A stretch of DNA of 64,000 nucleotides from Eledone cirrhosa. Its lineage: Eukaryota. The notes under the pieces were generated by a model that saw only the letters and a program-made list of their open reading frames with translations, ran no database searches and was not told where the DNA came from. Made by a program: the position numbers and the translations under genes. Shown here in pieces: positions 8,880-60,699 of the stretch. Position 1 is the stretch's first letter, and every line of letters begins with the position of its first letter. The stretch covers positions 38,316,001 through 38,380,000 of the forward strand of contig OZ024749.1 in the NCBI GenBank assembly GCA_964016885.1. The letters run 5' to 3'.

Positions 8880-9048
8880 GCGAAGGAAATGTGGTAAGGA
8901 ACCAGGTGGACCATAACGCACCAAAGTACTCAATACTTAGGGTAGTAGAGTGGGTAATAGGAACGAGTAGGACCCCGACGGCTATTTAGTCCAGAATTAG
9001 CCGTCGAAACAGCTTGATCTCAGCCGTCGGGGTCCTACTCGTTCCTAT
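8880..9048 (-). mobile_element. (TA)n-flanked insert with terminal fold-back, family F
   Basis: Inverted arms 8958-8983 / 9022-9047 (TAGGAACGAGTAGGACCCCGACGGCT). Homologous to 27418-27730 and 53347-53528. Confidence 0.7.
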
Positions 9049-9188
9049 ATATATATATAGTTTTTATAGTTTTTATAGAATTCCTTTTTCTTTAAATCCC
9101 TCAACCAATGACCTCCCCCCATCCCAATCACCACCCTCTCCTACCACTAGACAATGTATAAATACCATCGTATTACTTGGACAGTTCA

Positions 9189-9310
9189 TTTCCTGATGAT
9201 TTCTCCCGAATGAAACAGTTCTAGTCCTTTTCTATATTAAATAGTCATACTCTGCAATGTATTGTGTACCTTACTTATTGTTGTTACTCCCGATTGAATC
9301 CGGGATAAAA
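9189..9310 (+). mobile_element. Family D insert with damaged HHR
   Basis: UUUC-CUGAUGA-UUUCUCCCGAAU-GAAACAGUUCUAGUCC. The 3' strand (GUAGAAG in the 10861 copy) is deleted. 3' end matches 10785-10860 (minus). Confidence 0.55.
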
Positions 9311-9436
9311 TATATATATATAAATATATATGAATAAATTTAGTCCTTCATCAGTGATCTTCCAACCTTCATTGGTATTTCATTATATTTATATATATAT
9401 ATATATATATGCATATTTATTTATTAATTTATAAAA

Positions 9437-9670
9437 TAGAGGTGTGACACACGAGTTGTGATATATTAGTGAAAAGGAAAAGAAAATGCTGACAAATTTT
9501 TCCCAGTGAAAAATAGTTTAATTAGGAATAAGTATAAATTAGTAATAAGTATTAGTTAGTATTCAGTTTTAGTTTTGTGTTTTTACCGGTTGCGTATTTC
9601 TAATGCCTTTCAAAAATAATTTTGCTCGTGATTTTTGCTCTAATCTAGCGCAGATTCTCTATTCAGAGTT
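9437..9670. mobile_element. Dispersed AT-rich repeat, family G
   Basis: Homologous to 14405-14552 and 49420-49853 (AGAAAATGCTGACAAATT...TTTTACCGGTTGCG). Confidence 0.7.
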
Positions 9671-9687
9671 TCCCTCTCCTACGTAAG

Positions 9688-10275
9688 TATACATACATAC
9701 ATACATACATACATACATACATACATATATATACATATATAGATACATACATACATATATATACATACATACGTTCGTACGTACGTACGGATGTACGTAC
9801 ATACATACATACATACATACATACATACATACATATATACATACATACATTCATACATACATACGTACATACACATATACATACATACATACACACATAC
9901 ATACGTACATACGTGCATTATACATACATACATACATACATGCGCACATACAACATACATACACACATACATACATACATACATACATACATACATACAT
10001 ACATACATACATACATACATACATACATATATACATACATACACACATACATACGTACATACGTGCATATATACATACGTACATACATACATACATACAT
10101 GCGCACATACAACATACATACATACACACACATACATACATACATGCATACATACATACATAGATACATGCATACATACATACATACATACATACATACA
10201 TACACACATACACACATACATACATACATACATACATACATACATACATACATACATACATACATACATATACAT
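9688..10275. repeat. (TACA)n compound microsatellite
   Basis: Direct reading. Confidence 0.95.
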
Positions 10276-10784
10276 TAGTGTACACTTCAATATATGAATA
10301 AAACGAATATATAAGGAAGAGAGGAATGAATGTTGACAATTTTAGGCTCGGAGACATAAGCTTTATGTTCTTGACATTTCCGATATAAACAATTCATCTG
10401 ATAACAGAAGTAGAAGACCCCCCCCCCTCCCCCCCAAAAAGAAAAGATGAATTTCAAGAGAGATTTCATGAAAAGAAATGCATTCAGAAAACAGGTTTTT
10501 ACATCACCACTATTTTGAAATCTCATATATGTATGCGTATATTTATATATATATATATATATATATATATATATATATATATATATATATATATATATAT
10601 ATATGTATGTATATATATATATATATATATATATACATATATATATATATGTATATATATATATATATATATATATACATATATATATATATGTATATAT
10701 ATATATATATATATATATATATATATATATATATATATATATACATAAATATGTATATTTGTGTGTGTGTATATATATATATAT

Positions 10785-10952
10785 AAGTTATTCCGGGTTG
10801 AATCGGAGGTAACCACAGTAAGTAAGGTACTCAATACATAGCAGAGTATAAATGTTTTAATATAGAAGAGCTTCTACAGGACGAGAACTGTTTCATTCGT
10901 GATGATTTCTCACGAATGAAACAGTTCTAGTCCTGTAGAAGCTCTTCTATAT
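10785..10952. mobile_element. Family D insert with ~42-bp-arm fold-back (10861-10952) through the HHR
   Basis: TATAGAAGAGCTTCTACAGGAC...TTCGTGA-tgatttc-TCACGAATGAAACAGTTCTAGTCCTGTAGAAGCTCTTCTATA, flanked by (TA)n. Confidence 0.75.
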
Positions 10953-11106
10953 ATATATATATATATATATATGTAGATAAATCTACCAAGAGTTTACGGT
11001 AGTGTCCAATCCGTATGAAGAACTCAATGTATTCCGGATATCATGGAAAGAAGAGATGTAATGAAAATCGACTTTCGGTGAAAGATAAACGGTATACAGA
11101 GTCAAG

Positions 11107-57350: not shown

Positions 57351-57399
57351 CTAATCTAATACCCATCAGCACCACCAGAACATATTCACCAATAATAAT

Positions 57400-57427
57400 G
57401 ATTTCATTTATTGGCCACAAGGGCCGA
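57400..57427 (-). mobile_element. 28-bp 3'-end insertion of the Tx1-like family with an 18-bp TSD
   Basis: ATATTCACCAATAATAAT at 57382-57399 and 57428-57445. Insert reads CCCTTGTGGCCAATAAATGAAATC on minus, like the LINE 3' end at 47458-47480. Confidence 0.75.
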
Positions 57428-58185
57428 ATATTCACCAATAATAATAGCAACAGTTCGGTTTAAATCAAAGATTGTTCATTGATTGATCAAATTCAATTGG
57501 AACGTTTGGGGAAAATAACAAAAGAGATATTTTTAGAACACTGGAAATATTTTGAAGATATCGAAGTAGAAAGAAGTAGAAGAAGCAGAACAAAACAAAT
57601 AATTGAATATTATTTTTAAAATAGAAATTATGATTCCGTAGTAAAGTTTATAGCAGTCAACTAAACAATTACTTAATATAATTTATCTAATGTATAACTT
57701 AGTTAATGTAACTTACTTAATATCGCTGTTTTATGACTCTAATATGGTGACGTCTAGAGAAGGAGAAATTAGATATAATAATATATATGTATTGATCTGG
57801 CAAGTCTGGAAATTACTGTGGAGGTCATAGAAGCAACCCACCTCCACAAACGTATTTACCCATAGAAAAACAAAAAAATGAGCATATTCATAAATCTATA
57901 ATGAAATTGTTAAATGAGATACCCTTTATATATTATATATGAGGTTGCATTATTGATATAGTGGACATATGCAATTACATACTACACACGTACACACACA
58001 CACACACACACACACACACACACACATATATATATATATATATATATATATATATATATATATATATATATATATACATATACACACACATACACAAATA
58101 TATATAATGTATTGTAGTGTCTACGCCATTTTTGTAGACACTACACTACAATAGATTGCAATACAATAGGAGGAAGCATGATAAT

Positions 58186-58235
58186 AGTACCACTGATGAT
58201 GTTGCAGATGTGCAACGAAAGAACTTTGTTAGACT
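58186..58235 (+). ncRNA. Hammerhead, diverged family B relative
   Basis: CA-CUGAUGA-U-GUUGCA-GAUG-UGCAAC-GAAAG-AA-CUU/UG. Downstream AACCAACC...ATGACCCTCCC.AAGTATAACAATAT matches family B. Confidence 0.7.
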
Positions 58236-59449
58236 ATATATATATATTTATATCTGTATTTTTGACCGTTGGTCAGTCAATGATAAACATTGATGGTCAA
58301 ATAAATTAACTATGGAGATATAAAAGATGCAGAAGCGAAAACCAACCAAACAGTGAGTGTGTTCTGTTATTATTTCTGGCAATACTATTACAACAATATG
58401 ACCCTCCCCAAGTATAACAATATTTGTTTCGACACACGATTTCATATCAAAAACCTCGCAAAGTATATGTATATATATATATATATATATATATATATAT
58501 ATATATATATATATATATATATGTGTGTGTGTGTGTGTGTATGTATATATATATATATATAATCCTTATCTGTTCTTATAATAAATATTTGCTCTACGGT
58601 TCTATATATATATGTATTTTATATATATATACATGTGTGTGTGTGTGTGTGTGTGTATTGGACTTAACATAACTGACTATTTTTGACTCCTTTGTTTTGT
58701 TTCTTTTATTAAATATACATATATATATATATATATATATATATATATATACACACAAATTCGGTTTATACAAATGTATTTGAATATCTTGTTTAAAATC
58801 AGTATGTTTTATCCTTCCACAACATCGATATGTTTAAAACAATCACTCAACTGTAATTATTCATAGATTATCTAGAGAACTACAACTATTGTATAGAAAT
58901 ATTTACTATTCTGAAATATTCCCGATTATCTCATTATGATCAGTAATGTGTTGGCGTTGGTGCTTTTATTTAGGTGGTATTTTATTTTAGTCTGTATTTC
59001 TCTTACTCTCTCCCCATTTCTCTCGCCCTTCTCTTCTCTCATATTTTCTCTCCATCCTCACCTTTCCCTTCCATCTCTCTCATTATTCTCTCTAGAGAAG
59101 TTAGACATTTCTTTTCAGTTTATCTGAAAAGAAATTCTATATATATTTTGACGGCAAACCTTTAAGAAATCAATTTATAAACGATGGGAAATTTATTATT
59201 CCGAATATCATCATCAACATCATCATCATCATCATCATCATCAATATCAACATCATCATCATCATCGTTATCATCGTCGCCGTCGTTGTTGTTGTTGTTG
59301 TTGTTGTTGTTGTTGTTGTTGTTGTCGTCATCTTCAAAATCATCATTATTACTATTATTATTATTATTATTATTATTGACAAAATATTGTTTCTTCCGTA
59401 AATACAACAAAATATGATTGGATCTTTTGAAGTTAATAATCGATAATAG

Positions 59450-59880
59450 TGATTGATTCATTTATTGGCCACAATGGCAGACATATAGGGGACAATAAAA
59501 AAAAAACAGCGACAGTAGGGGTTTTAGAAAAAAATCGAGTAAAACAATATAAAAAAACAATAAAAAATAAGCAATATAATTATAACATTTCAAATTCTCC
59601 AATAGAACCACCCAATGGTGACTCGGGAGCCACACCAATCCTGAACCCCAGGAACCTCAAAAAGCACTTGATGAGGGCACCCTTCTCCTTTCCCCAATCA
59701 GCCAGCCTACAGATGCTTTCACAAAGGCTATCCTGGTAACATTCACCCATCTTTTAGCAAATGTACTGAGGTGGGGGCAGCACTTCTCTCTCCACCCTCA
59801 CCTTCCTTTCCAAGTGAAACTTGAAAAAGTTGATGATGGATCTCACGAAACGGATATGTAAGCACAGAACAACCATACCA
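59450..59880 (-). mobile_element. Tx1-like LINE 3' fragment
   Basis: Minus strand IINFFKFHLERKVRVEREVLP matches 47092-47150. 3' end TTGTGGCCAATAAATGAATC. Confidence 0.8.
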
Positions 59881-60107
59881 CACACACATACACACACAAA
59901 CACACAAACACACAAACACACACACACACACACACACAATTTGAAGAGGGAGAATAATACATAAATCCAAATTCCACCAACACATCCCTCGTGACTCTGT
60001 GACTATCTTTAAAAGCCCTTTCCAAAAAGGGTCACACTGAAATATCCCCTCTCGTCCCTAAACTACTTTATTCATTTCTCCACTTACCACTTACGTCGAT
60101 CAAATTA

Positions 60108-60175
60108 GGACACCTGATGAGATAGCGTTTGGAAATAATTCAGTCATCCATTCACCGTCGAAACGGTGTGTGTTC
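60108..60175 (+). ncRNA. Hammerhead-like motif with a degenerate cleavage site
   Basis: GGACAC-CUGAUGA-GAU...GUC-GAAAC-GGUGU-GUGUUC. Helix I GGACAC/GUGUUC is intact but there is no clean NUH. Confidence 0.5.
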
Positions 60176-60456
60176 AGCTGTCGGTACTAACTATTTAAAA
60201 TACATACACTCTACTTCTGCAAACATCGTGTAATTAGTTCAAGATGGTCTTACTAGTCAAAACTTGTAGCTCTCAATATATATATGTACACACGTAAACA
60301 CACACACACACACACACACACACACACACATATATATGTGTGTGTGTGTGTGTGTGTGTGTGTGTGTGTGTGTGTGTGTGTTTGCATATATATATATGTA
60401 TCTGTATATACATATCTGAACATGTATATATATTAGAATTGGTGCTCTGAAACAGC

Positions 60457-60699
60457 TATATATATATGAATGTATATATAGTGTATTTTGCAATACACTG
60501 TATGCTTAATTAAAAGTATTTCAAAGACCTTATGCTATTGTTTTAGAGTAGTGACAGACTCACTTACTTTAATTTTCAGAAAATTAAAGTAAGTGAGACT
60601 GTCACTACTCTAAAACAATAGCGTAAGGTCTTCGAAATGCTTTTAATTAAGCATACAGTGTATTGCAAAATACACTATATATACATTCATGTATATATA
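60457..60699. repeat. ~243-bp palindrome (centre 60578) bounded by (TA)n
   Basis: CTTACTTTAATTTTC-a-GAAAATTAAAGTAAG, arms with about 5 mismatches. Confidence 0.92.

What the first reader, a model, noticed from the sequence alone, without database searches (positions are those of the whole stretch)
8880..60699. Recurrent full copy plus inverted truncated copy architecture across unrelated insert families
At least ten fold-backs are present: 8958-9047, 10861-10952, 11107-11510, 16524-16785, 27293-27384, 39816-40161, 49450-49853, 53347-53450, 53609-54154 and 60457-60699. In most, one arm stops abruptly at a (TA)n or similar tract while the other continues into the element's 3' end. Mismatches and indels between arms (39930, 49616, 53803, 60510-60560) argue for real, aged insertions. 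Inverted pLTRs are known for Penelope, but this frequency and the near-zero spacers suggest hairpin-primed second-strand synthesis as the default integration mode.
Basis: partly seen in the sequence, partly recalled or inferred. Interest (0 to 1): 0.75.

Follow-up and report, generated by a model that had tools for sequence, protein, structure and literature searches.

The report
Penelope insertions primed from both ends
These mirror-image repeats are real insertions of Penelope-type jumping genes into TA repeats, a known layout, and their junctions suggest they likely form when both cut DNA ends copy the same RNA and the two copies are then joined, rather than when one copy folds back on itself.

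Summary
All ten fold-backs are real. They are head-to-head stumps of nine repeat families. One arm stops at a fixed internal site next to (TA)n; the other runs on through a 31-169 nt tail to (TA)n. Five families were traced to Penelope-like ORFs (RT plus C-terminal GIY-YIG; Hydra- and Neptune-type). This inverted-pLTR-plus-tail layout is published, and it is the majority outcome here (60-87% of resolved copies). The proposed hairpin priming fits poorly. In one young family, of 55 complete junctions the tail-less arm is longer in 24 and the tailed arm in 5. In 9 the arms do not overlap at all. Of 26 symmetric junctions, 17 have loops of 0-2 nt. Arms share alleles at 210 of 210 comparisons. Best reading (inferred): both nicked ends prime on one RNA at two fixed starts, and the two cDNAs join 3' to 3'. 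Near-zero spacers would arise when both reach the same RNA 5' end. Older families show asymmetry in both directions, so snap-back may contribute. The scan already reported two-ended priming on other windows of this genome and in a shark; this report adds junction-level tests.

The parts
8881..9048 (-). F1, family A stump: tail 8881-8956, tailed arm 8957-8983, tail-less inverted arm 8984-9048 (reaches 38 nt further 5'); (TA)n both sides
10786..10947 (-). F2, family E stump with hammerhead-like fold; tail about 74-79 nt; tail-less arm about 10 nt longer at its 5' side
10973..11507 (-). F3, pLTR plus 134-nt tail of a young autonomous Hydra-type PLE (P3); perfect 199-bp arms, zero loop, centre at the family's fixed turn site
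16418..16783 (-). F4, 3' end of a Hydra-type PLE (family C); tailed arm about 170 nt longer at its 5' side, 4-nt microhomology
27180..27384 (-). F5 stump; hammerhead-like fold lies just upstream in unfolded copies; tail-less arm 6-8 nt longer
27420..27731 (+). two further family A stumps, each in (TA)n
39816..40330 (+). F6, pLTR plus about 169-nt tail of a Hydra-type PLE (4.7-kb unit); tail-less arm 27 nt longer at its 5' side
49417..49846 (-). F7, pLTR plus about 40-nt tail of a Neptune-type PLE (family D); tailed arm 6-8 nt longer, 2-nt microhomology
53347..53527 (+). F8, family A stump; tail-less arm about 11 nt longer
53553..54150 (-). F9, 3' end of a Neptune-like PLE (family B) with hammerhead-like fold; 57-nt tail; tailed arm 7 nt longer
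60426..60699 (-). F10 stump, similar by eye to a hammerhead tandem array at L250; 1-nt loop
8742..8867 (+). solo family C stump ending in (TA)n
9185..9308 (+). solo family E stump
9435..9624 (-). diverged family D stump
14411..14551 (-). solo tail-less family D arm, identical to the F7 arm over 141 nt
58394..58462 (+). short diverged family B 3' end

Best explanation
These are insertions of several Penelope-like retroelement families into (TA)n, and each fold-back likely forms when both cut target ends prime reverse transcription on one RNA and the two cDNAs are then joined by their 3' ends. Shown: PLE identity for five families, two fixed outer end points per family, head-to-head geometry, variable 5' extents with either arm the longer one, and shared alleles between arms. 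Inferred steps: (1) the GIY-YIG nuclease cuts both strands in (TA)n; (2) one end starts at the RNA's outer start site and gives the tailed arm, the other starts at a fixed internal site and gives the tail-less arm; (3) each cDNA stops on its own, often at the RNA's 5' end; (4) the two cDNA 3' ends anneal by 0-7 nt of microhomology or through filler and prime each other's second strand. Zero-spacer palindromes would arise when both cDNAs reach the same RNA 5' end, most often a fixed site that is likely the pLTR transcription start.
For: Family P3, 84 tail-less ends taken in genome order: 69 have a head-to-head partner, 11 none, 4 unresolved. Of the 55 whose partner is seen to end in tail plus (TA)n: 26 symmetric (within 11 nt), 24 tail-less longer, 5 tailed longer (binomial p=5.5e-4). 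In 9 the tailed piece is only 12-116 nt and does not overlap the inverted arm, so it cannot have been its template. 17 of the 26 symmetric junctions have loops of 0-2 nt; 2 of these lie in TA-rich palindromes that could snap back. Opposite ascertainment, 30 tailed ends: 16 partners within 1.5 kb, of which 6 tail-less longer, 10 symmetric, 0 tailed longer. Arms agree at 210 of 210 comparisons over 6 common SNPs and share rare variants in 7 loci. In family A, 26 of 33 arm pairs share an identical variable segment against 20% for random pairs. Outer ends are fixed: 134 (P3), 57 (B), 65 (C), 77 (A, 20 of 27), 73-74 (E, 14 of 15) nt from the 3' end. Family D: 24 divergent pairs, 1 convergent and 1 tandem among the first 100 listed matches (counted by hand); all 7 divergent pairs with both sides fetched have one tailed and one tail-less arm. 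In vitro, a Poseidon PLE cuts and extends both strands, starts at two sites that bound the tail, and is predicted to be a dimer (PMC11167929, parts 1-2 of 4 read).
Against: In the older families B and C the tailed arm is more often the longer one (9 v 4 and 11 v 6). Those samples required 148-165 nt of tailed arm and so exclude the short-tail class, but they show the P3 direction is not general. With both P3 arms at least 167 nt the excess falls to 11 v 5. Symmetric junctions away from the fixed site (5 of 55 in P3, plus L218, L304, L306, L309; 7 in B, 3 in C) need a shared broken RNA end or snap-back. Allele sharing is also expected from snap-back, from gene conversion, or from one active source at a time. 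One family A locus (L027) has arms from different variants, so one RNA is not universal. About a third of tailed ends have no inverted partner. Palindromes erode after insertion, which can create either asymmetry. The transcription-start reading rests on motifs only. The (TA)n target hides the duplications that would show two nicks.
Confidence: 0.72

Rival explanations
1. Hairpin-primed second-strand synthesis as the default (first reader; self-priming in PMC3846280): one tailed cDNA folds back and copies itself; asymmetries come from later deletion.
For: Gives allele sharing and symmetric centres directly. Fits F4, F7 and F9 in the window, the tailed-longer junctions in B and C (20 of 40) and centres in natural palindromes (L187, L208, L216, L031, L042). 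L322 shows a double fold-back.
Against: 24 of 55 P3 junctions have the tail-less arm longer and 9 have no overlap. Loops of 0-2 nt occur in 17 of 26 symmetric junctions. It does not explain a fixed outer end of the inverted arm. With one arm complete at the fixed site, the truncated partner is the tailed one in 7 cases and the tail-less one in 1; random erosion would not favour one side. These copies are mostly 97-100% identical to the reference in their unique parts.
Confidence: 0.08
2. Mixed route: both ends prime, but one cDNA often snaps back at its 3' end and the other cDNA anneals to the new sense strand.
For: Explains the tail, the fixed ends and the symmetric junctions far from the fixed site (for example 4997/4997 at L218; 829/829 at L074).
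Against: Many such junctions have 0-1 nt loops (L142, L205, L074), which a direct hairpin cannot leave unless it is trimmed afterwards.
Confidence: 0.12
3. Two different RNAs on a dimer, one per nick, each copied from its own start.
For: Predicted dimer; discordant arms at L027.
Against: 210 of 210 concordant alleles and shared rare variants; symmetric junctions at variable sites imply a shared template end. One active source at a time could hide two RNAs.
Confidence: 0.05
4. Palindromic master elements (MITE or foldback type) that move as a unit, or assembly and library artefacts.
For: Turn sites cluster within a family. A recurrent arm mismatch was seen in the first family A sample.
Against: That mismatch came from the query: 11 of 11 scorable copies outside that sample lack it. 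Centres vary from copy to copy over 12-6000 nt. Unfolded copies run into RT ORFs. Reads of three other individuals give continuous depth across the F3-type centre (family level, reduced-representation libraries, not shown to be PCR-free).
Confidence: 0.03

Closest known systems
Complex insertions of endonuclease-positive Penelope-like elements (Craig et al. 2021, PMC8557442; passages and sections 11 and 15 read)
   Same: Partial tandems forming pLTRs, an adjacent inverted 5'-truncated copy, a tail at one end only, (TA)n targets, hammerheads in pLTRs.
   Different: Tails here are 31-169 nt against 30-40 in the paper. The paper calls the cause of tandem/inverted structures undefined and gives no junction counts in the parts read.
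Adineta vaga Penelope head-to-head pLTR palindromes (Arkhipova et al. 2013, PMC3846280; passages)
   Same: Head-to-head inverted pLTR, palindromes at the junction, optional tail, TATA and Inr-like motifs in the pLTR.
   Different: They propose self-priming on an antisense template from a few copies; the junctions here favour two primed ends.
Poseidon PAc in vitro (Frangieh et al. 2024, PMC11167929; parts 1-2 of 4)
   Same: Both strands cut and extended, two RT start sites that bound the tail, AT-rich targets.
   Different: A different clade. The parts read do not link the two starts to the inverted arm or describe how cDNAs join.
LINE-1 twin priming (model recalled; passages of bioRxiv 10.1101/2024.12.14.628481 seen)
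   Same: Both target ends prime on one RNA and give a 5'-inverted insert.
   Different: As recalled, L1's second site is variable and the two pieces usually do not overlap. Here the second site is fixed, the pieces usually overlap into a palindrome, and it is the majority route.
Animal non-LTR retrozymes (bioRxiv 10.64898/2026.07.22.740005; part 1 of 5 read)
   Same: Hammerhead-bearing non-coding PLE derivatives; F10 resembles the tandem array at L250.
   Different: Most window fold-backs are single stumps of coding elements, not arrays.

Membership tests
EN+ Penelope-like elements | Single ORF with RT and GIY-YIG endonuclease linked to the repeat | tested here: met
   5 of 9 families: P3 (uninterrupted 830-codon frame), B, C (frameshifted copy), D and F6 (each in two frames). 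Not obtained for A, E, F5, F10. Motifs read by eye; Pfam gave only a weak RVT_1 hit for B and none for three other frames.
EN+ Penelope-like elements | Partial tandems that form pLTRs | tested here: met
   P3 units of 6080 and 6641 bp flanked by repeats; F6 4.7-kb spacing.
EN+ Penelope-like elements | Adjacent inverted 5'-truncated copy and a tail at one end | tested here: met
   tails longer than the published 30-40 nt in most families.
EN+ Penelope-like elements | Type I hammerhead motif in the pLTR | tested here: inconclusive
   Own descriptor finds one in E, P3, F5, F6, B and L250 (shuffle rate 0-9%). A and C show cores by eye only. None found in D or in two F10 references. No Rfam match at gathering score in 9 loci. 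Cleavage not tested.
EN+ Penelope-like elements | RT groups with PLE/telomerase RTs in a tree | not tested
   No reference PLE proteins were fetched.
Hydra clade (P3, F6, C) | RWK-type and DKT motifs; CxCX5C linker; CxxC and CxH around the EN end | tested here: met
   P3 and F6 show RWR, DKT, CxCX5C, CxxC and CxH; C shows CxCX5C, CxxC and CxH (criteria).
Hydra clade (P3, F6, C) | CCHH finger absent | tested here: inconclusive
   C and F6 lack a cysteine pair inside the GIY-YIG core; P3 has two cysteines there.
Hydra clade (P3, F6, C) | Generally shorter than 3 kb (typical, not strict) | tested here: not met
   Units of 6.1 kb (P3) and 4.7 kb (F6).
Neptune/Nematis type (B, D) | C-terminal EN, CX2-5CxxC linker, CCHH finger | tested here: met
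   Both have CX4CxxC, two cysteines in the core and downstream histidines; D has GxKF and DKG. Clade not resolved by a tree.
Naiad | N-terminal GIY-YIG | tested here: not met
   EN is C-terminal in all five ORFs.
MITE / foldback DNA transposon | Terminal inverted repeats of fixed length with a fixed target duplication | tested here: not met
   One end carries an unpaired tail; arm length varies from tens to thousands of bases. A target duplication cannot be read in (TA)n.

The most novel reading that the evidence does not exclude
Across Hydra and Neptune clades, the normal Penelope integration route is programmed twin priming: one RNA is copied from two fixed starts by both ends of a double-strand cut, and the two cDNA 3' ends prime each other's second strand. 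One scheme would then explain the tail, the inverted pLTR and second-strand synthesis, and would have left on the order of 100,000 palindromes in this genome.
Probability: 0.55. Interest if true: 0.72.

Novelty: new member of a known kind. Interest (0 to 1): 0.5.

Why it matters
How Penelope-like elements make their inverted ends and tails is named as unsolved in PMC8557442. This genome has young families with hundreds to thousands of near-identical ends, so arm extents and junction bases can tell the mechanisms apart. The P3 junctions argue against the published self-priming idea as the default and link the two in vitro RT starts to the inverted arm. An uninterrupted P3 ORF gives material for a direct test. 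The density (about one per 27 kb in the sample) also makes these elements a large source of hairpin DNA and possible double-stranded RNA.

Tried and rejected
Rfam on the window returned only sub-threshold microRNA-type hairpin matches among the 150 of 278 rows shown, and nothing at gathering score on 9 loci. A palindromic-master model based on a recurrent mismatch was dropped as query bias. The idea that the family A centre is the ribozyme's own stem II was dropped: unfolded copies have a different upstream strand. Naiad identity was dropped (EN is C-terminal). A splice-acceptor reading of the fixed turn site was set aside because many family A copies keep the AG; it is not excluded. A universal rule that the tail-less arm leads was rejected by families B and C. 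The ratio of 4277 tailed to 501 tail-less pattern matches is not a frequency, because the tail pattern spans more subfamilies. A DNA search with the F7 arm returned nothing. No RNA holder was listed. No ORF link was found for A, E, F5 or F10 in the sequence held. Empty alleles were not obtained. Literature searches (listings only, apart from the papers named as read) showed no paper that applies twin priming to PLE inverted ends. Subscription papers on Penelope structure are mostly outside the library, and no supplements were read.
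Full report
Setting. The window lies in a 3.0-Gb animal genome (G000:C9) rich in TA repeats. An octopus-like host is my recalled impression from the SINE and repeat content, not a tool result.

Observation. A hairpin finder on repeat-masked sequence recovered nine of the ten fold-backs and none in ten shuffles; self-BLAST gave the tenth and an eleventh. Each is head-to-head: (TA)n, an inverted arm without tail, a junction, a direct arm, a tail, (TA)n. The cited arm differences are real. 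Spacers run from 0 to 144 nt.

Identity. Copies elsewhere show what the arms are. [quoted passage not shown] F3 is the pLTR and 134-nt tail of P3, found as pLTR-ORF-3'UTR-pLTR units with an uninterrupted 830-codon frame. F4 (C), F6 and F7 (D) also link to such ORFs. By the criteria in PMC8557442 (sections 11 and 15 and passages), P3, C and F6 look Hydra-type and B and D Neptune-type; no tree was made. A, E, F5 and F10 were not linked to an ORF. Hammerhead-like folds were found by descriptor in E, P3, F5, F6 and B, seen by eye in A and C, and not found in D; Rfam gave no match.

Frequency. In 69 evenly spaced 10-kb samples, 80 lenient inverted repeats were found. 65 were kept after requiring 84% identity in the outer 25 nt and arms under 2 kb. 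Of these, 26 have TA at one end and a 20-200 nt tail then TA at the other, against 1.4% of 4106 random intervals. That is about one per 27 kb, or roughly 110,000 by extrapolation. The same test gives 7 of 9 in the window, about three times the sample mean.

Mechanism test. Snap-back of a tailed first strand predicts that the tailed arm reaches at least as far 5' as the other, overlaps it, and leaves a loop of 3 nt or more. I took 84 of the first 100 listed matches (501 genome-wide) to the P3 tail-less end and mapped both arms on one real unit (table curated by hand). Of 55 complete insertions, 26 are symmetric (21 at one fixed site 328-341 nt from the 3' end), 24 have the tail-less arm longer and 5 the tailed arm longer. 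Nine tailed pieces are 12-116 nt and share no sequence with the inverted arm. Fourteen more loci have a partner whose far end was unseen or ran into the next unit; over all 69 the split is 33 to 9. Seventeen of 26 symmetric junctions have loops of 0-2 nt, often a 2-nt self-complementary overlap, as expected if two identical 3' ends anneal. A tail-anchored sample gave 6 tail-less longer, 10 symmetric and 0 tailed longer (three of its 30 loci are also in the first set, and four ran past the fetched range). In the window, five fold-backs have the tail-less arm longer, two have 0-1 nt loops and three fit snap-back (read by eye).

One template. Arms agree at 210 of 210 allele comparisons and share rare variants in seven loci. 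In family A, 26 of 33 pairs share an identical variable segment against 20% at random, with one clearly discordant locus. In family D, close pairs are divergent 24 times and convergent once among the first 100 matches (hand count), and 7 of 7 divergent pairs with both sides fetched have one tailed and one tail-less end.

Results against. B and C show more tailed-longer junctions (9 v 4, 11 v 6), in samples that exclude short tailed arms. A and E are near even (tail-less longer 8 v 5, and 4 v 4). The P3 excess shrinks to 11 v 5 when both arms must exceed the search pattern's reach. Allele sharing alone does not separate the models, and erosion after insertion was not measured.

The fixed turn site. 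In P3, A and E the 5' ends of both arms cluster at one place. It falls in a TCA(G/T)-type motif, with a TATA-like word about 30 nt upstream in E; these promoter motifs are recalled, not from a call. In P3 and E it is also the 5' edge of ribozyme stem I. I infer a transcription start. No RNA run was available.

Reality. Reads of three other individuals give continuous depth across the F3-type centre.

Comparison. The layout is published (PMC8557442; PMC3846280), as is self-priming as its explanation. Two-strand extension and two RT starts are shown in vitro for another clade. My searches showed no paper joining these into twin priming for PLEs, within the library's limits. I reached the two-ended reading before opening the scan's notes. 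Those notes report it for other windows of this genome and for a shark; they are not independent support, and they gave the lead to the Hydra criteria.

Verdict. Real, and a known architecture of known element kinds. The frequency claim holds; hairpin priming as the default does not. Two-ended priming on one RNA is the best-supported route (0.72), with snap-back a possible minor one.

Noticed in passing
window 43103-47295 (+): Broken LINE-type element with RVT_1 and zf-RVT matches, unrelated to the fold-backs.
   Followed up: partly
window 15328-15633 (+): Fragment 45% identical to the P3 GIY-YIG end, a further Hydra-type family.
   Followed up: no
window 169-819, 15085-15273, 17388-17598, 31203-32052, 41003-41409, 54195-54383, 61701-62315: Many copies of one 190-nt SINE-like repeat, some as 90- and 137-bp tandem units.
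   Followed up: no
window 50158-51988: 33-bp minisatellite, 55 copies, 95% matches.
   Followed up: no
window 8742-9308, 10786-11507, 53347-54150: Different PLE stumps sit side by side and share TA tracts, as if each insertion site is reused.
   Followed up: no
L250:3852-7500: Head-to-head palindrome with 1668-bp arms made of tandem hammerhead-bearing units, similar to F10.
   Followed up: partly
L322; L141; L172: A double fold-back, a restarted arm and a 48-nt filler of repeated local sequence point to repeated template switching at the junction.
   Followed up: no
L027: Family A fold-back whose arms come from different sequence variants.
   Followed up: partly
family B pLTR, window about 53885-53900: A YY1-like word (motif recalled) lies about 13 nt behind the clustered 5' ends.
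   Followed up: no
L157:rc 5027-8512: P3 has a non-coding 3' region of about 3.5 kb rich in microsatellites, unusually long for a Hydra-type element.
   Followed up: no
window 18003-18050 (+): A further hammerhead-like fold with a 10-bp stem II outside the listed fold-backs.
   Followed up: no
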